From Coprobacillus sp. (GTDB lineage Bacteria > Bacillota_I > Bacilli_A > RFN20 > CAG-826): a DNA stretch of 64,000 nt. The DNA lies in assembly GCA_021203905.1 (NCBI GenBank), contig JAJQAG010000004.1:129939-193938 (forward strand), in the 5' to 3' direction. The notes under the pieces were generated by a model that did not search any database, had not been told where the DNA came from, and saw only the letters and a program-made list of their open reading frames with translations. Position numbers and translations under genes: made by a program. Of this stretch, positions 4,116-25,876 are shown one piece after another (position 1 is the stretch's first letter; every line of letters begins with the position of its first letter).

Positions 4116-4262
4116 TACTTGGCCTCCTTATTTTAAATTCACTAAGGACTCGCTATGAAGGTCGAGAAGAATCTCAGTTAGTAAACCTTTTCTAGGCGGT
4201 TGTAGCTAGTGAGGCTAAACAACGCTTGATACTATAACATAGTTATAATATGCCCGCAAGAA
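4116..4262 (-). promoter_or_regulatory. rplU promoter (TTGCGG-17-TGtTATAGT) plus a leader of about 125 nt, possible L21 leader
   Basis: On the minus strand an extended -10 TGTTATAGT sits with 17-nt spacing to a TTGCGG -35. A long structured 5' UTR precedes the L21 Shine-Dalgarno. The L21 autoregulatory leader of Firmicutes is established knowledge, but the fold was not verified here. Confidence 0.35.
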
Positions 4263-4276
4263 GTTTTTTAAGAGGG

Positions 4277-4972
4277 TTAGAGTTTTTTATAGATGATGTC
4301 TTTATTATCCGCAAACGAATAATAACCTTGACCAGAGATGATAATGTGATCGAGAAATTCAATTCCGACTTTTGCACTATCCTCTAAAAGAAGGAAGGTG
4401 AAATTGATATCATAGTCACTCGGTGTGACCACCTTTTGACCAGAGGGGTGATTATGAATAATGTAATACTTTTTCCCTCCTCTCTTTAGTATTTCCCCTA
4501 AAATTTCATTTTCATTCACCGACATATCACTACTGGTTCCTTGGTAGAGATCGCTCTCATGAATGATCCTTCCACTTTTAGAGATGGAGACGACGATAAG
4601 GTGTTCTTGTCCTTCGTCTCGAAATAGGCTTTGGTATTTGTTAATGAGGTATTCTTTGATATCCCCAATCGAGGCACACTCTTGAATCTGATAGTTGTAT
4701 CTTTTAGCGATTTCTATGACCGCGGCAATCTTGGTGGCATTGATCTTATTAATCCCTTCATGGGCCACTAAATCATCCATGGTCATTTCTCCTACTTTTA
4801 CTAGTCCTCCTTCCATTAAAATAGATTGACTTATCTCAATCGCGGACATCTTCTTAGTTCCACTAGAGATAATCAGAGCGACGAGTTCTGTATCAGAGAG
4901 GGCGCTAATCCCATAACGCATGGCTTTTTCTCTCGGTCTGAGTAAAGGTGGGATGTTTTTTATCTTTCCCAT
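4277..4972 (-). CDS. radC: RadC-like JAB/MPN domain protein (UPF0758)
   Basis: HNHPSG JAMM motif and an N-terminal HhH segment LSDTELVALI. The start is set at the ATG at 4972 (MGKIKNIPPLLRPRE), which overlaps the stop of the upstream small ORF as TAATG. The track start at 4993 is an alternative. Confidence 0.85.
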   Translation of the reverse strand: MGKIKNIPPLLRPREKAMRYGISALSDTELVALIISSGTKKMSAIEISQSILMEGGLVKVGEMTMDDLVAHEGINKINATKIAAVIEIAKRYNYQIQECASIGDIKEYLINKYQSLFRDEGQEHLIVVSISKSGRIIHESDLYQGTSSDMSVNENEILGEILKRGGKKYYIIHNHPSGQKVVTPSDYDINFTFLLLEDSAKVGIEFLDHIIISGQGYYSFADNKDIIYKKL

Positions 4973-5154
4973 TAAGCCCACTGAAATTCCCATCCACCAG
5001 GGATGGTGACCTCTCCACTGTTACTGGTGGCAATACGACAGACAAGAGCGGCAACTACCGCTGCGGCAAGGATTGCCATTACTGCGGTAAGAGTTATGGC
5101 TTCACCAACGACCTCTTGACGCATCTCGTCATCATTCATTTTTGTTAGTGTCAT
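4972..5154 (-). CDS. small membrane protein of 60 aa
   Basis: The central stretch ITLTAVMAILAAAVVAALV is hydrophobic. A strong GGAGG Shine-Dalgarno lies 7 nt upstream. The gene is translationally coupled to radC and is preceded by a 24-nt motif shared with the gene at 20633. Confidence 0.45.
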   Translation of the reverse strand: MTLTKMNDDEMRQEVVGEAITLTAVMAILAAAVVAALVCRIATSNSGEVTIPGGWEFQWA

Positions 5155-5161
5155 TCTTTTT

Positions 5162-5186
5162 CCTCCTTTGTCTATATATTCATTAG
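5162..5186 (-). repeat. conserved leader motif copy A: CTAATGAATATATAGACAAAGGAGG on the coding strand
   Basis: Near-identical to positions 21092-21120 (one T indel). It ends in the Shine-Dalgarno of the downstream gene. Confidence 0.5.
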
Positions 5187-5236
5187 TAAGAGATTTCTCT
5201 CTTTTGGGAGAAAAATGTTAAAGAAAAGACACAAAA

Positions 5237-5262
5237 GAAAAAATCACCGAAGTGATTCTCTC
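5237..5262 (-). terminator. intrinsic terminator after valS
   Basis: The minus strand reads AATCACttcgGTGATT followed by TTTTTT. Confidence 0.6.
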
Positions 5263-5285
5263 TTTTATATACAAAGTATATAAAC

Positions 5286-7865
5286 TTACTTTAACTTAGA
5301 GAGCAAGGCCTTGAGATTCTCTTCGTGTTTCTTCTTCTTCGCTTGCTCAAGCTCGACCTTTTCTTTTGGGGCTTTAGAGACAAAACTTGGATTAGAGAGT
5401 AAGCTCTCACATCTATTGATCTCACTCTTAAGATATTCTATCTCTTTTAAGATGGCGTCTTTGTCAGTCTCTTCTTCTACAATTAAGAGATCAAAACTAG
5501 AGAATGTATAGAGAGAACCTTCTTTCTTAGAGATGTTTTTATCATTAATTGTGAGCTCATCTGTAAAGGTAAATCTCTTAAATAAAGGAGTAATATCATA
5601 ACTATATAGACCTTTATAGTTGAGAGAGACGACTAACCCTTGATTGGGAGAGATTTTTCTCTCAATTTTATAGTTTCTCACGACCTTAATAGCACTCACT
5701 AAAGAATCTATGAGTTCATCACTCTCTTTATTAACCCACTTTGCGTGATACTTAGGATAGGTTTCTAAGTTCACACTTTCTCGGTGAGAAGGAAGTGATA
5801 AATAGATCTCTTCACTGATAAAAGGAGTAAAAGGAGAGAGCATTAAAACAATATTCTTAAGGCAATAATAGAGGACTTGATAAGTAACCTCTCTCTCCTC
5901 ACTTTGAAGAGAAACTTTACTCATCTCGATATATGTAGAGCAGAAATCATCGTAGACAAAGTCATAGAGAAGAGAACTCGCTTGATTAAAGTTATAGTGT
6001 TCCATATGGGTGGTGACCTTCTTTGTCACCTCTTCCATCTTATTAATAATCCATTGATTAAGAGGAGATAAGTCTAAACGAGAGAGATTCTTTACTGGTT
6101 TAAAGCCTTCTGGTAAGACACTTAAGACATAGCGTGCGGAATTATAGACCTTATTTAAGTAATTAGAGGCCGCAACGACCTTATTTTCACTATATCTCAT
6201 GTCAAGACCTGCTGCGGTATTCGTGGTAAGGAAATATCGAAGAGCATCCGCACCATATTTATCGATAACCACAAGGGGATCCACTCCATTACCTAAGGTT
6301 TTTGACATCTTTCTTCCTAATTCATCACGACAGAGACCATGAATGATGACATTACGGAAAGGAATCTGGTTATTAAAATGGAGAGATTGGACCATCATAC
6401 GACTGACCCAGAAAAAGATTATGTCATATCCTGTAATAAGAGCGGAGGTTGGGAAATAACGCTGAAATAATGGATCTGTAGTATCAGGCCAGTTTAAAGT
6501 GGCAAAGGGCCAAAGAGCACTTGAGAACCAAGTATCTAAGACATCACTATCTTGTTCGTAGTTATTAATATCTTTTGGGGCCTCTTCACTAACGATGACA
6601 GAGCCATCAATCTTTGAATAATACGCTGGGATACGATGTCCCCACCTAAGTTGACGAGAGATACACCAATCTTCGATATTATCCATCCAGCGGATAAGAG
6701 TATTATTAAATCTTTGTGGGATAAAATTCACTTTCCCTTTACCCTTTTGTGTCTCAATGACTTTTTGGGCAAGAGGTTTCATCTTCACAAACCATTGTTT
6801 GGAAATCATTGGTTCCACAACAGCGCCAGAGCGCTCACTATGTCCCACAGAGTGAGTGATGGTTTCTTCTTTGATAAAATCATCATTATCTATTAGTTCT
6901 TTTAATAAAGCTTCACGACAATCATATCTATCTAGGCCTTGATATTTCCCGCAGTGCTCATTCATCTTCCCATCTAGCGTCATAATCACAGGTTTCTCGA
7001 GATGATATTTCTCCCCAATAAGAAAGTCATTAGGATCATGAGCGGGTGTACATTTCATCACTCCCGTTCCAAAACTAACATCGACATATTCATCACAAAT
7101 TACTTCAATTACTTCTTTATTTGCGGGATTTATCACTTTTTTACCGATATATTTTGTATATCTTTTATCTTTAGGATTCACTACAAGACAGACATCTCCA
7201 AACATGGTCTCGGGTCTTGTTGTGGCCACTGTGAGATATTCATCACTATCCACTAAACGATACTTAAAGTAATACATCTTTCCTAGATCATCGCTATGGA
7301 TAACTTCAACATTACTTAAAGCGGTCATCTGCACTGGATCCCAGTTTATGATCCTCTGTCCTTGATAGATAAGTCCTTCCTTATACATTTGGACAAAGAC
7401 TTTCTTTACCGCTTTTTGCATCCCCTCATCAAGGGTGAATCTTTCCTTAGAATAATCAAGGCTTAATCCAAACTTCTTCCACTGCTCATGAATGCTAGAT
7501 GCATACTCATCTTTCCATTGCCAAGCGTAGGTTAGGAATTCATCACGACTTAAATCATGAGGATTAATCCCACTATTTCTGAGTTTCTCACTGACTTTAG
7601 CTTCAGTAGCAATACCCGCATGATCCATTCCTGGAAGGAATAAGACATCATATCCTTTCATTCTTTTATAGCGGCAGATAATATCTTGTATGGTCGTGTC
7701 CCAAGCATGTCCTAAATGGAGTTTTCCGGTCACATTAGGGGGAGGAATAACGATGGAATATGGTTTCTTAGTGAGATCACCACAAGTAAAATAACCTTTC
7801 TGACACCAGGTTTCATACTTCCCTTCTTCCACTTTTTTTGGATCGTATCTTTTATCCATAACCAC
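5286..7865 (-). CDS. valS: valyl-tRNA synthetase
   Basis: 859 aa. HIGH-type motif region (GKLHLGHAW) and KMSKTLGN. A C-terminal coiled coil is present. Confidence 0.97.
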   Translation of the reverse strand: MVMDKRYDPKKVEEGKYETWCQKGYFTCGDLTKKPYSIVIPPPNVTGKLHLGHAWDTTIQDIICRYKRMKGYDVLFLPGMDHAGIATEAKVSEKLRNSGINPHDLSRDEFLTYAWQWKDEYASSIHEQWKKFGLSLDYSKERFTLDEGMQKAVKKVFVQMYKEGLIYQGQRIINWDPVQMTALSNVEVIHSDDLGKMYYFKYRLVDSDEYLTVATTRPETMFGDVCLVVNPKDKRYTKYIGKKVINPANKEVIEVICDEYVDVSFGTGVMKCTPAHDPNDFLIGEKYHLEKPVIMTLDGKMNEHCGKYQGLDRYDCREALLKELIDNDDFIKEETITHSVGHSERSGAVVEPMISKQWFVKMKPLAQKVIETQKGKGKVNFIPQRFNNTLIRWMDNIEDWCISRQLRWGHRIPAYYSKIDGSVIVSEEAPKDINNYEQDSDVLDTWFSSALWPFATLNWPDTTDPLFQRYFPTSALITGYDIIFFWVSRMMVQSLHFNNQIPFRNVIIHGLCRDELGRKMSKTLGNGVDPLVVIDKYGADALRYFLTTNTAAGLDMRYSENKVVAASNYLNKVYNSARYVLSVLPEGFKPVKNLSRLDLSPLNQWIINKMEEVTKKVTTHMEHYNFNQASSLLYDFVYDDFCSTYIEMSKVSLQSEEREVTYQVLYYCLKNIVLMLSPFTPFISEEIYLSLPSHRESVNLETYPKYHAKWVNKESDELIDSLVSAIKVVRNYKIERKISPNQGLVVSLNYKGLYSYDITPLFKRFTFTDELTINDKNISKKEGSLYTFSSFDLLIVEEETDKDAILKEIEYLKSEINRCESLLSNPSFVSKAPKEKVELEQAKKKKHEENLKALLSKLK

Positions 7866-8057
7866 TCCTAGAAGAAATAAAAAACGTCCATCTTAAGGAC
7901 GCTCATCACGCGGTACCACCTTAATTCGCTACACCGTAACGCACTTCATTTATTGTTTTGTTCTCCAAAGCGACCTTCGTTATACTTCTTCACCAGGCTT
8001 CCACCATCCCCAGCTCTCTATACAAGATGGATATAACTACTCCTCTTCTTCACCGAA
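7866..8057 (-). promoter_or_regulatory. T-box leader of valS
   Basis: On the minus strand the T-box sequence AATTAAGGTGGTACCGCGTGA (plus 7909-7926) is followed by the terminator CGTCCttaagatGGACG and TTTTTT (plus 7879-7901), directly before the valS Shine-Dalgarno. Confidence 0.8.
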
Positions 8058-8064
8058 CACTCTT

Positions 8065-20632: not shown

Positions 20633-21085
20633 TTATTTGGATGATTCGTCATCCTTTTTTGCTAATTTATTCATCCAAAAAGGAACCTGAAAATAGGAGG
20701 CTTCATCCATATTCATCACAAAGCCATTCACCGTGAAGTTTTTCTTGATGTCTCCCTTTTTAAAGGTGAGAGTGTAAAAACCAAGCACCACTCTTTCAAT
20801 CCCCCCAAGATTGATAAAGTGATAACCCATAAGTCTCTTTTCTATTTCTTCTTTCTCCTTCTCATCAAGACAGAGGGAGTAGTCATATTTAAGAGAGTTA
20901 TATTCCCTGAGATAACTATCGACATCTCTTGAAGTGGGAGACATAAATAGTTCTCCGGTTTCTTCGTTTTTATCAACGAGAAGAAAGGGTTCATCATCGG
21001 TCTGATAAATATAGTTTCTTCCCCTGAATTTAGCGGTCAGTAAATAACGACCTTTTAAAAGATAAAAGTTCCCAATTTCTAACAT
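20633..21085 (-). CDS. hypothetical protein
   Basis: 150 aa. GGAGG Shine-Dalgarno 6 nt upstream. It is preceded by the shared 24-nt leader motif. Confidence 0.6.
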   Translation of the reverse strand: MLEIGNFYLLKGRYLLTAKFRGRNYIYQTDDEPFLLVDKNEETGELFMSPTSRDVDSYLREYNSLKYDYSLCLDEKEKEEIEKRLMGYHFINLGGIERVVLGFYTLTFKKGDIKKNFTVNGFVMNMDEASYFQVPFWMNKLAKKDDESSK

Positions 21086-21091
21086 AAAAAA

Positions 21092-21120
21092 CCTCCTTGT
21101 CTATATATTCATTAGGGAGG
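21092..21120 (-). repeat. conserved leader motif copy B: CCTCCCTAATGAATATATAGACAAGGAGG on the coding strand
   Basis: Near-identical to positions 5162-5186. CCTCC and GGAGG flank an 18-nt loop and could sequester the Shine-Dalgarno. Confidence 0.5.
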
Positions 21121-21148
21121 TTTAATGCTAATCTCGGACATCAAATTA

Positions 21149-22063
21149 TTAGTCACTGTTAAAAGGTTCGAGTGAATCGAGAATATTTTTAAAATATTCT
21201 GGGAGAGGACTATTAAAGGTCATCTCTTCTTTTGTAGTGGGATGAACAAGGGTTAACTGGTAGGCATGAAGCATCTGTCCATTGGGGCTGAGAGGTTTAA
21301 CATTCTTTTCACCATATAAAGGATCACTTTCAATGGGATAACCAAGATAGGCAAGGTGCACTCTAATCTGGTGAGTACGGCCGGTCTCTAGATCACATTT
21401 AATAAGGGTGTGACTCTTATATCTTTTAACCACTTCAAAGTAGGTCACCGCGCTTTTACCCCCTCTGACCACCGCTTGTTTCATGGGATACTTTTTATCT
21501 TTATCAATGGGTAAATCAATCTTCGCTTTATTCTCCTTAATGTTTCCTCTCACCAGAGCATAGTAACTTCTTCTCATCGTGTGATCTTCAAGTTGCTGTG
21601 AAAGAAAGGCATGAGCATAGTCATTCTTCGCCACACAGACGAGTCCAGAGGTATCTTTATCGATGCGGTGGACAATCCCAGGACGAAGATCCCCGTTTAA
21701 AGTGGAGAGTTGAGCGAAATGATAGGCAAGAGCATTGGCCATGGTGTGGGTCTCATTACTGATTCCAGGGTGCACTACCATACCCTGAGGTTTATCCACA
21801 ATGATAATGTCATCATCCTCATAGACAATATTAAGGGGAATATCTTCTTTAAGAAGAGTGACTTCTTTCTCGACCTCTTCCACACTGATTTCATCATCAA
21901 GTTTAGTGATATAAGAAGGTTTGACTTTAGTGTCATTAACTAACACTCCCCCTTCTTTAATAAGTGTGGCAATACTACTTCTGGACATATTAGGAAAAGA
22001 TAAGGCCAAGGCCTTATCAATTCTCATATCTTTAAGGTAATCGTCAACTTTTACTCTTTCCAC
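21149..22063 (-). CDS. rluD: RluA-family 23S rRNA pseudouridine synthase (RluD-like)
   Basis: 304 aa. N-terminal S4 domain and catalytic HRIDKDTSGLV. Confidence 0.9.
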   Translation of the reverse strand: MERVKVDDYLKDMRIDKALALSFPNMSRSSIATLIKEGGVLVNDTKVKPSYITKLDDEISVEEVEKEVTLLKEDIPLNIVYEDDDIIIVDKPQGMVVHPGISNETHTMANALAYHFAQLSTLNGDLRPGIVHRIDKDTSGLVCVAKNDYAHAFLSQQLEDHTMRRSYYALVRGNIKENKAKIDLPIDKDKKYPMKQAVVRGGKSAVTYFEVVKRYKSHTLIKCDLETGRTHQIRVHLAYLGYPIESDPLYGEKNVKPLSPNGQMLHAYQLTLVHPTTKEEMTFNSPLPEYFKNILDSLEPFNSD

Positions 22064-25621: not shown

Positions 25622-25876
25622 ACTCTCTCCTTAAAAAGAAATAAAAAGCATCCATATCTAAGGACGCTTTCGCGCGGTACCACCTTAGTTCTAGAGAACC
25701 CTCTCTAGCGCTTCATTAGCCTAATAACGTTTAGAAAACGGAGACTTACTCTTAGTTCAGTACTCATAAGAAGGAGTGATATCTATACATCTCTTTCTTG
25801 TTGACCTTTCCATCCACTGCCAACTCGCTGTAAGGGGGTGATATATAAACTTGTCTCCTAATTGCTTACTAACAAG
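25622..25876 (-). promoter_or_regulatory. T-box leader of ileS
   Basis: On the minus strand the T-box sequence CTAAGGTGGTACCGCGCGAAAGCGTCC (plus 25671-25688) is followed by a terminator hairpin and TTTTTATTTC, then the ileS Shine-Dalgarno. Confidence 0.8.

What the first reader, a model, noticed from the sequence alone, without database searches (positions are those of the whole stretch)
5155..5190. Conserved 24-nt motif ending in the Shine-Dalgarno, copy A, upstream of the small membrane protein/radC unit
The coding-strand sequence CTAATGAATATATAGACAAAGGAGG recurs almost identically at 21092-21120 in front of an unrelated gene. Copy A follows the valS terminator, so it must carry promoter and/or translational control information. 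It contains a TATATA -10-like core, a possible TGaaTATATA extended -10, and the Shine-Dalgarno. The -35 region is not conserved between the two copies. This points to an operator or RNA element rather than a plain promoter.
Basis: seen in the sequence. Interest (0 to 1): 0.5.

Follow-up and report, generated by a model that had tools for sequence, protein, structure and literature searches.

The report
Shared hairpin masking two ribosome sites
The repeated 19-base motif is real and is kept in related bacteria, and it is most likely the top of a small RNA hairpin that hides the ribosome-binding site of two unrelated genes: an ordinary kind of translational brake, not a promoter.

Summary
CTAATGAATATATAGACAA occurs exactly twice on the minus strand (5168-5186 and 21097-21115). 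Each copy sits 0-1 nt before a GGAGG and 6-7 nt before an ATG, far beyond chance.

The organism is an uncultured Coprobacillus MAG. The motif is kept at both orthologous loci in a sister species, 19/19 and 18/19. At locus B it is kept in a third species, 17/19 with a 2-nt loop deletion, although the downstream protein there is only 36% identical. The adjacent spacer sequence has diverged.

In all ten leaders examined, the Shine-Dalgarno pairs with an upstream CCUCC or CUCC, and the bases flanking this core change in a compensating way. In more distant relatives the 19-mer is absent. A short CCUCC-loop-GGAGG hairpin with a U-run stands in its place and is the only terminator-like site after valS.

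No sigma-70-like promoter is detected at either copy, and no Rfam family matches.

Best reading: a Shine-Dalgarno-sequestering leader hairpin descended from a terminator hairpin. A ~30-nt module of it is duplicated in front of a second gene. Why the apical sequence is conserved is unexplained; a shared trans-acting factor or nuclease site is inferred. This is a new member of a known kind, of modest interest.

The parts
5168..5186 (-). Copy A of the 19-mer CUAAUGAAUAUAUAGACAA. It is read as the apical part of the hairpin: inner CUA:UAG pairs, an AU-rich loop and a 3' ACAA bulge.
   Evidence: Exact match. 19/19 identical in sister species L075-L077.
5157..5166 (-). 3' arm of hairpin A, GGAGGAAAAA. 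The Shine-Dalgarno GGAGG is 5162-5166 and the ATG start is 5152-5154.
   Evidence: Sequence. Paired in the minimum-free-energy fold. Predicted probability that the Shine-Dalgarno is paired is 0.99.
5207..5215 (-). 5' arm of hairpin A, UUUUUCUCC (the distal anti-Shine-Dalgarno).
   Evidence: Folds. The block is conserved in L075 (UUUUUUCUCC) and L078 (AUUUUCUCC).
5188..5203 (-). Small inner hairpin AAGAGA-GAAA-UCUCUU, inserted between the anti-Shine-Dalgarno and the 19-mer. It is species-specific: L075 has a different AU hairpin plus a proximal CCUCC here.
   Evidence: Only 10 of 21 aligned columns are identical between the two species.
5229..5270 (-). Intrinsic-terminator-like hairpin of valS followed by a U-run.
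   Evidence: Almost invariant in L075.
4972..5154 (-). 60-aa predicted membrane protein. It is the first gene behind copy A and overlaps the radC ORF (4277-4993).
   Evidence: Orthologues of 60-61 aa sit between valS and radC in seven other assemblies. No Pfam or NCBIfam family matches.
21097..21115 (-). Copy B of the 19-mer.
   Evidence: 18/19 identical in L008-L010. 17/19 with a 2-nt deletion in L085.
21089..21123 (-). Hairpin B: AAACCUCC (21123-21116), the 19-nt apical part, then GGAGGUUU (21096-21089). The Shine-Dalgarno is 21092-21096. A U6 run and the ATG (21083-21085) follow.
   Evidence: Folds (z = -2.5 to -3.0). Probability that the Shine-Dalgarno is paired is 1.00, rank 1 of 17 GGAGG-led genes. 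It is the only GGAGG-plus-start site in the window with CCTCC within 60 nt upstream.
21080..21130 (-). Outer extension of hairpin B. UAGCAU (21130-21125) pairs with AUGUUA (21085-21080), so the start codon is also enclosed.
   Evidence: Minimum-free-energy and centroid folds. The same is predicted for L008.
20633..21085 (-). 150-aa clade-restricted ORF behind copy B.
   Evidence: Only two other relatives were found, among 5.8 billion and 1.84 billion sequences. No family matches.
21149..22063 (-). rluD, the last recognisable gene of the T-box-led ileS-lspA-rluD operon. Copy B lies in the 63-nt spacer that follows it.

Best explanation
The motif is the apical portion of a cis-acting RNA hairpin in the leader of two distal cistrons. 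An upstream CCUCC (copy B) or UUUUUCUCC (copy A) pairs with the GGAGG Shine-Dalgarno and its 3' flank. In B the start codon is paired as well. The ribosome-binding site is therefore masked, and translation of the 60-aa membrane protein/radC unit and of the 150-aa ORF is held low or made conditional.

Both genes lack a detectable promoter of their own. Each sits at the far end of a T-box-controlled aminoacyl-tRNA synthetase operon (valS; ileS-lspA-rluD). The hairpin would uncouple their translation from read-through transcription of those operons.

The structure descends from a terminator-type hairpin, CCUCC-short loop-GGAGG-U run. That hairpin still ends valS in more distant relatives. In this clade the loop grew into the 19-mer, and a ~30-nt module (CCUCC + 19-mer + GGAGG) was copied between the two loci.

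Shown: the repeat, its conservation, the complementarity, and the flank covariation. Inferred: that the hairpin forms in vivo and lowers translation. Also inferred: that the sequence-specific conservation of the apical 19 nt reflects recognition by a shared trans-acting factor, which could be a protein, an sRNA, or an endoribonuclease that cuts the loop and frees the Shine-Dalgarno.
For: 1. All ten leaders fold with GGAGG paired to an upstream CUCC, CCUCC or CCCCC. They come from two loci and eight assemblies. The probability that the Shine-Dalgarno is paired is 0.80-1.00.

2. The pair next to the core covaries: A:U in winB and L081, G:C in L008B, U:A in L085B and L075A, C:G in L083A. The pairs inside the core also switch, UA:UA against UU:AA against UAU:AUA.

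3. This architecture is rare. In the window, 1 of 37 GGAGG-plus-start sites has CCTCC within 60 nt upstream, and that site is copy B. Copy A has CTCC 44 nt upstream. Apart from two CTTCC matches of different sequence and a mirror-strand artefact, the architecture occurs in 173 kb of clade DNA only at these two loci.

4. Constraint is local. At locus A the motif block is 29/29 identical while 10 of 21 columns match in the adjacent spacer (Fisher p = 2e-5). At locus B the figures are 28/29 against 19/29 (p = 0.005). Four-fold degenerate sites differ by 35-52% between the same two species. In L085 the motif is kept although the downstream protein is only 36% identical.

5. The 2-nt deletion in L085 lies in the apical loop and creates a perfect CUAAU:AUUAG inner helix. 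That is tolerable for an RNA hairpin but awkward for a dimeric DNA operator.

6. In L079 and L082 the homologous hairpin is the only terminator-like site after valS.

7. No promoter-like site is found at either copy.
Against: There is no expression or structure-probing data, so transcription across the element and its effect on translation are inferred.

Predicted Shine-Dalgarno pairing is not unique to these genes. Four other leaders in the window score at least 0.89.

Fold z-scores are modest, from -0.2 to -3.4.

The reverse strand folds as well or better, so a strand test gives no support for the sense RNA. L081 and L083 carry a C-A mismatch in the core on the sense strand.

A hairpin alone does not explain why 19 loop nucleotides are invariant. 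No partner RNA was found in the window and no binding protein is known.

Leaders in general are well conserved between the two closest species, 49-59 of 60 nt. The sister-species comparison alone is therefore weaker than the four-fold-site figure suggests.

How copy A is transcribed past a strong valS terminator is unknown.
Confidence: 0.6

Rival explanations
1. DNA-level control. The motif would be a weak or extended -10 promoter with an overlapping operator for a transcription factor that co-regulates both genes. One candidate is autoregulation by the 150-aa protein, whose homologue in L085 is paired with a toxin gene.
For: The 19-mer has partial dyad symmetry (TG-N2-TATATA-N2-CA), and the L085 version is a perfect CTAAT-N4-ATTAG palindrome. 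Sequence-specific conservation of the interior is what an operator would show. Toxin-antitoxin-like modules are commonly autoregulated at palindromes (general knowledge), and the L085 neighbour is a CptIN-family toxin. Copy A needs some way to be expressed after the valS terminator.
Against: No sigma-70-like site is found at either copy, while canonical promoters are visible elsewhere, for example before obg. The -35 position falls in the least conserved segment. The half-site spacing changes by 2 bp in L085. The arms of the palindrome are always exactly the Shine-Dalgarno and its complement, while the interior is free to vary in more distant relatives, which points to RNA. The 150-aa protein has no recognisable DNA-binding domain, and its structure model is too poor to judge.
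Confidence: 0.13
2. It is simply an intrinsic terminator of the upstream operon (valS; ileS-lspA-rluD). Its 3' arm happens to serve as the next gene's Shine-Dalgarno, and there is no dedicated translational role.
For: In L079 and L082 the homologous hairpin with a U-run is the only terminator-like site after valS. L083 has A-run and U-run flanks. Copy B and its orthologues keep a U-rich tract after the stem.
Against: Copy A in the window and in L075 is followed by AAAAA, not U, and a separate canonical terminator stands 40 nt upstream. The pairing is nevertheless maintained through a distal UUUUUCUCC arm. In this clade the loop is 19 nt or longer, outside the usual terminator range, and the scan does not call it. 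A terminator role does not explain an invariant loop.
Confidence: 0.1
3. A small ligand-sensing riboswitch, or an RNA thermometer, whose aptamer or sensor is the conserved apical 19 nt.
For: Shine-Dalgarno sequestration beside a conserved, apparently unpaired sequence is the usual expression platform of small riboswitches (general knowledge). The element is conserved across three species.
Against: No Rfam family matches either copy even at E up to 10. The downstream genes have no metabolic or transport link. The conserved part is AU-rich, has almost no predicted internal structure, and tolerates a 2-nt deletion. It is absent from more distant orthologous leaders. No copies exist outside this narrow clade.
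Confidence: 0.05
4. A functionless remnant: a recent local duplication or gene conversion, a dispersed repeat (REP/MITE-like), or attL/attR of an inserted element.
For: The two copies are direct repeats 15,929 bp apart. The shared segment has sharp borders of about 30 nt.
Against: Both copies were already present before the split from the sister species and have stayed nearly identical, while adjacent bases diverged. The DNA between them carries syntenic housekeeping genes, including valS and mutS2, with the same gene order in relatives. No further copies occur in 173 kb of clade DNA.
Confidence: 0.04

Closest known systems
Shine-Dalgarno-sequestering leader hairpins (translational attenuators). 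Examples from general knowledge: the TRAP-dependent trpE Shine-Dalgarno-blocking hairpin of Bacillus subtilis, type I toxin mRNA leaders, and fourU/ROSE RNA thermometers.
   Same: A pyrimidine anti-Shine-Dalgarno stretch pairs with the Shine-Dalgarno, and partly with the start codon, directly in front of the regulated cistron. One regulated product is a small hydrophobic protein, as in many toxin leaders.
   Different: No trigger (protein, temperature or antisense RNA) is known. The anti-Shine-Dalgarno is CCUCC rather than UUUU (fourU) or UYGCU (ROSE). The apical 19 nt are sequence-conserved and shared by two unrelated genes. No Rfam family matches.
Rho-independent terminators whose 3' arm contains the next gene's ribosome-binding site
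   Same: In relatives L079, L082 and L083 the homologous hairpin has 7-11 pairs, a 4-7 nt loop and a U-run, and it is the only terminator-like site after valS. Copy B keeps a U6 tail.
   Different: In the window clade the loop is 19 nt or longer. Copy A has lost the U-run and gained a separate terminator upstream, so termination cannot be its maintained function.
Protein-bound translational operator hairpins. Examples from general knowledge: the phage MS2 coat-protein operator, and ribosomal-protein and ThrRS autoregulatory operators.
   Same: A short hairpin at the ribosome-binding site whose apical nucleotides, not only its stem, are under sequence selection.
   Different: No binding protein has been identified. 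This is a resemblance in logic only and nothing here tests it.
Sigma-70 extended -10 promoter
   Same: It contains TG and a TATATA run about 10 nt before the Shine-Dalgarno.
   Different: It fails the hexamer and spacing consensus at both copies and in the orthologues. There is no conserved -35.

Membership tests
Shine-Dalgarno-sequestering leader hairpin (translational attenuator) | A sequence complementary to the Shine-Dalgarno lies upstream in the same transcript and pairs with it in the predicted fold | tested here: met
   CCUCC or UUUUUCUCC pairs with GGAGG in the minimum-free-energy and centroid folds of both copies and of all 8 orthologous leaders. Probability that the Shine-Dalgarno is paired is 0.80-1.00.
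Shine-Dalgarno-sequestering leader hairpin (translational attenuator) | The pairing is maintained in orthologues through compensatory change | tested here: met
   The flanking pair is seen as A:U, G:C, U:A, C:G and U-G. The inner pairs are UA:UA, UU:AA or UAU:AUA. The register was set by hand because MAFFT alignments were out of register, so no formal covariation statistic was obtained.
Shine-Dalgarno-sequestering leader hairpin (translational attenuator) | Disrupting the hairpin raises translation of the downstream gene | not testable with these tools
   This needs reporter fusions or ribosome profiling.
Sigma-70 promoter (-35/-10, or extended -10) | TTGACA-like and TATAAT-like hexamers 16-18 nt apart, with A at position 2 and T at position 6 of the -10 | tested here: not met
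   Zero promoter-like sites in 4900-5400 and in 20900-21400. The orthologous A leaders of L079, L081 and L082 also have none.
Intrinsic (Rho-independent) terminator | G+C-containing stem, a loop of 3-8 nt, and a U-run directly after the stem | tested here: not met
   Neither copy is called. Copy A is followed by A5 and copy B has a 19-nt loop. The feature is met by the homologous hairpins of L079 and L082.
Any described RNA family (Rfam 15), including small riboswitches, leaders and thermometers | A covariance-model match at or near the gathering score | tested here: not met
   At gathering thresholds the window yields only a tRNA and the L21 leader. At E up to 10 the two copies share no family, and every hit is far below its gathering score.
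Dispersed repeat (REP/MITE) or att sites of a mobile element | Many copies without positional bias, or mobile-element genes between the two direct repeats | tested here: not met
   There are two copies in the window and none extra in 173 kb of clade DNA. The interval carries syntenic housekeeping genes. The whole genome could not be scanned.
Transcription-factor operator (DNA palindrome) | Dyad symmetry with fixed half-site spacing, conserved across orthologues | tested here: inconclusive
   There is partial dyad symmetry, but a 2-bp spacing change in L085 and no interior conservation in more distant relatives. Protein binding is not testable here.

The most novel reading that the evidence does not exclude
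The invariant apical 19 nt could be the recognition site of a dedicated trans-acting factor that opens or locks the hairpin. The factor could be an RNA-binding protein (possibly the 150-aa ORF product itself), an sRNA, or an endoribonuclease that cuts the AU-rich loop and separates the anti-Shine-Dalgarno from the Shine-Dalgarno. This would form a tiny post-transcriptional regulon. It would link a conserved small membrane protein/RadC unit to a clade-specific gene that, in a related species, is the upstream partner of a CptIN-family endoribonuclease toxin lacking the usual RNA-repeat antitoxin.
Probability: 0.2. Interest if true: 0.55.

Novelty: new member of a known kind. Interest (0 to 1): 0.3.

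Why it matters
If the reading is right, it shows how a terminator hairpin can evolve into a dedicated translational brake and then be copied as a roughly 30-nt module onto a newly acquired gene. It also gives a candidate cis-element for controlling a conserved but uncharacterised 60-aa membrane protein that is coupled to RadC in Coprobacillus-like gut bacteria. The unexplained invariance of the loop is the only part that could lead to something new, namely a shared trans-acting regulator. Otherwise this is a routine leader structure in an uncultured lineage.

Tried and rejected
1. Genome-wide and metagenome-wide exact scans of the 19-mer gave 5 and 64 hits. All are single matches in unrelated AT-rich sequence. 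Most read as an in-frame N-E-Y-I-D peptide, and none has a flanking CCTCC or GGAGG. They are chance matches.
2. A viral-contig scan with an indel-tolerant motif, and a viral search with the ORF150 alignment, found nothing.
3. Rfam was searched at gathering thresholds and at E up to 10. Nothing is shared by the two copies.
4. A search for a complementary partner RNA in the window gave a best non-self duplex of -14.7 kcal/mol, which lies inside an 804-aa coding ORF. It was treated as chance.
5. MAFFT alignments of the hairpins were out of register. No covariance model or the count of structure pairs was attempted, and covariation was read by hand.
6. A comparison of sense and antisense folding energy was inconclusive. 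The antisense strand folds equally well or better.
7. An AlphaFold2 model of the 150-aa protein from a 3-sequence alignment reached pLDDT 55, so no fold search was run.
8. Pfam and PADLOC searches of the 60-aa and 150-aa proteins gave no hits, and NCBIfam gave only weak sub-threshold matches for the 60-aa protein.
9. Several ideas were considered by inspection and dropped:
   - NrdR box: the core is similar but the flanks are wrong, there is no tandem pair, and the genes are unrelated.
   - dif/Xer site: there is no XerD arm.
   - CsrA site (ACAAGGA): the GGA lies in the stem, and the presence of CsrA is unknown.
   - Sigma-H and sporulation-sigma -10 boxes: the spacing is inconsistent across orthologues.
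   - K-turn: the GA positions do not fit.
   - Mini-ORF AUG-AAU-AUA-UAG in the loop: it has no Shine-Dalgarno of its own and is not kept in L078.
   - Pseudoknot between the loop and the early coding region: it is not conserved between loci.
10. One look-up of encoding contigs was wasted on a duplicate query.

Full report
OBSERVATION. The minus strand carries CTAATGAATATATAGACAA-A-GGAGG at 5162-5186 and CCTCC-CTAATGAATATATAGACAA-GGAGG at 21092-21120. The 19-mer is identical in both. With up to 3 mismatches there are no other copies in the 64-kb window, against 0.04 expected by chance. It is the only 100%-identical repeat family reported by the direct-repeat scan. Copy A lies after a strong terminator-like hairpin that ends valS (5229-5270), 7 nt before the ATG of a 60-aa membrane ORF that overlaps radC. 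Copy B lies in the 63-nt spacer after rluD, 6 nt before the ATG of a 150-aa ORF. The two downstream proteins are unrelated, and neither has a significant Pfam, NCBIfam or PADLOC match.

WHERE IT COMES FROM AND HOW WIDESPREAD IT IS. The 150-aa protein identifies the source as an uncultured Coprobacillus sp. MAG. Exact scans of 185,579 species genomes and of the JGI metagenome set returned 5 and 64 single matches. All are in unrelated AT-rich sequence, most read in frame as N-E-Y-I-D, and none has a flanking CCTCC or GGAGG. Viral contigs gave nothing. The motif is therefore private to a narrow lineage.

ORTHOLOGOUS LOCI. I fetched relatives through RadC, the 150-aa ORF and RluD.
- Sister species (housekeeping proteins 87-99% identical): locus A keeps 19/19 plus AGGAGGAAAA, now preceded by CCTCC (L075-L077). 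Locus B keeps 18/19 (L008-L010).
- Third species (L085; RluD 78% identical): locus B reads CCTCCC-CTAATGAATAT--TAGATAA-GGAGG. That is 17/19 with a 2-nt deletion, although the downstream protein is only 36% identical.
- Locus A in more distant genomes: the 19-mer fades. L078 has UUUUCUCC-CUAUAUAUAUGACAA-AGGAGGUAAAA, L079 has CCUCCUA-UAUAU-UAGGAGG-U5, L081 has CCCCCUAU-AUAA-AUAGGAGG-U6, L082 has CCUCCUU-UAAUAGU-AAGGAGG-U6, and L083 has A5-U-CCCCCCUA-AUUAUAUAAC-UAGGAGGG-U5.

The feature common to all ten leaders is a pyrimidine block complementary to the Shine-Dalgarno (SD), not the 19-mer.

CONSTRAINT. Four-fold degenerate sites differ by 35-52% between the window and the sister species, and by 64% against L085. 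Leaders in general are much better conserved than that, 49-59 of 60 nt, so the fairer test is local. At locus A the motif block is 29/29 identical while the adjacent spacer has 10 of 21 identical columns (Fisher p = 2e-5). At locus B the figures are 28/29 against 19/29 (p = 0.005). The L085 copy extends this to a distance at which the flanks no longer align. The motif is under purifying selection at both loci.

STRUCTURE. Both copies fold with the SD paired.
- Copy B: AAACCUCC pairs with GGAGGUUU around the 19-nt apical part. An outer UAGCAU:AUGUUA helix also covers the start codon.
- Copy A: UUUUUCUCC pairs with GGAGGAAAAA around a small species-specific hairpin plus the 19-mer.

All ten leaders show this pairing, with a probability that the SD is paired of 0.80-1.00. 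The base pair next to the invariant core changes in a compensating way: A:U in winB and L081, G:C in L008B, U:A in L085B and L075A, C:G in L083. The pairs inside the core switch between UA:UA, UU:AA and UAU:AUA.

The architecture is rare. Of 37 GGAGG-plus-start sites in the window, only copy B has CCTCC within 60 nt upstream, and copy A has CTCC at 44 nt. Across 173 kb of clade DNA, a pattern search for anti-SD, loop, SD and start hits the A and B loci. The only other hits are two CTTCC matches of unrelated sequence and a mirror-strand artefact.

Three caveats apply. Predicted SD pairing of at least 0.89 also occurs in four other leaders. Fold z-scores are modest, from -0.2 to -3.4. The antisense strand folds at least as well. 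I also could not obtain an in-register automatic alignment, so the covariation is hand-read.

ORIGIN. In L079 and L082 the hairpin is the only terminator-like site after valS, and L083 has a bidirectional-looking version. The ancestral element was therefore probably the valS terminator with the next gene's SD in its 3' arm. In the window clade, locus A acquired a separate terminator and lost the U-run but kept the pairing through a distal arm. This argues that SD masking, not termination, is what selection maintains there. Within the 19-mer, CUA...UAG continues the ancestral stem, ACAA is a 3' bulge, and AUGAAUAUA is the loop. The L085 deletion lengthens the inner helix to CUAAU:AUUAG. The 150-aa ORF family has only three members in 1.84 billion representative proteins, and no homologue lies next to rluD in the more distant genome sampled at that locus (L086). 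A ~30-nt module was therefore evidently copied between the loci, but the direction is unresolved.

PROMOTER READING. No sigma-70-like site is found at either copy or in the orthologous A leaders of L079, L081 and L082. The position where a -35 would lie is the most variable segment. An alternating TATATA cannot provide both key -10 bases. Canonical promoters are visible elsewhere in the same genome, for example before obg.

Both copies sit at the distal end of T-box-led synthetase operons. The T-box matches lie just under the Rfam gathering score: valS leader 7892-8062 at 89.4 bits, and ileS leader 25657-25872 at 84.4 bits. Expression by read-through, with translation gated by the hairpin, is the simplest scheme. 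This is inferred.

WHAT REMAINS UNEXPLAINED. A masking hairpin does not need an invariant 19-nt top. No Rfam family matches. No complementary RNA was found in the window beyond a chance hit inside a coding ORF. No structure-based clue came from the 150-aa protein, whose model reached only pLDDT 55. A shared trans-acting factor or a nuclease site is the most natural inference, but it is untested.

VERDICT. It is best filed as a new member of the known class of SD-sequestering leader hairpins (confidence about 0.6). It is derived from a terminator and duplicated onto a second gene. The promoter interpretation is not supported, and the operator interpretation is not excluded (about 0.13). Interest is modest (0.3). 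The upside lies in the possible trans-acting factor and in the link to a CptIN-family toxin module seen in L085.

Noticed in passing
window 7892-8062 (-) and 25657-25872 (-): T-box leaders lie upstream of valS (89.4 bits) and ileS (84.4 bits). Both score just under the Rfam gathering score of 93, so the default scan missed them. A repeat family (D8) had flagged their shared GGTACCGCG core. Both motif copies therefore sit at the distal end of T-box-controlled operons.
   Followed up: yes
L085 2640-3077 and 3074-3598: In a related species, the 145-aa homologue of the window's 150-aa ORF overlaps by 4 nt (ATGA) a CptIN-family type III toxin gene (NCBIfam NF047359, E = 2.6e-29). No tandem RNA repeats are present in that 4-kb contig. 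A protein, rather than the usual RNA-repeat antitoxin, may partner this toxin. The window's 150-aa ORF has no toxin gene next to it.
   Followed up: partly
L086 6931-7153 and 7157-7684 (-): In a more distant relative, rluD is followed by a 117-nt unit repeated 1.9 times. Each unit carries a terminator-like hairpin on the minus strand. The repeat lies downstream of a convergent CptIN-family toxin gene (E = 8.7e-27). Both the position and the period are unlike described type III antitoxin arrays.
   Followed up: no
window 4972-5154 (-); L075 9819-10001, L079 9816-10001, L081 4261-4443, L082 4111-4296, L083 2547-2732, L078 99-281: A 60-61-aa predicted membrane protein has an invariant core GEAITL(T/S)AVMA(I/V)LAAA and a C-terminal TIPGGW(E/N)FxW. 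It is conserved between valS and radC in eight assemblies, and its stop overlaps the radC start. It belongs to no described family.
   Followed up: partly
window 5188-5206 and 5254-5268 (-): The 11-mer AAAAGAGAGAA of the valS terminator's 5' arm is repeated in the small inner hairpin of leader A. This suggests that the species-specific insert arose by local duplication.
   Followed up: no
window 5171-5182 and 21100-21111 (-): The 19-mer contains a mini-ORF, AUG AAU AUA UAG. In L085 the 2-nt deletion turns it into AUG AAU AUU AGA UAA. It has no Shine-Dalgarno of its own and is not kept in L078, so it is probably incidental.
   Followed up: partly
window 4135-4211 (-): An L21 leader (RF00559, 39.7 bits) lies in front of rplU-ysxB-rpmA, directly downstream of radC. 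The 60 nt before rplU are 59/60 identical in the sister species.
   Followed up: no
window versus L075/L008 leaders: The 60 nt before start codons are 82-98% identical between the two closest species, while four-fold degenerate sites differ by 35-52%. Leader and promoter regions in this lineage are therefore far more constrained than synonymous sites.
   Followed up: partly
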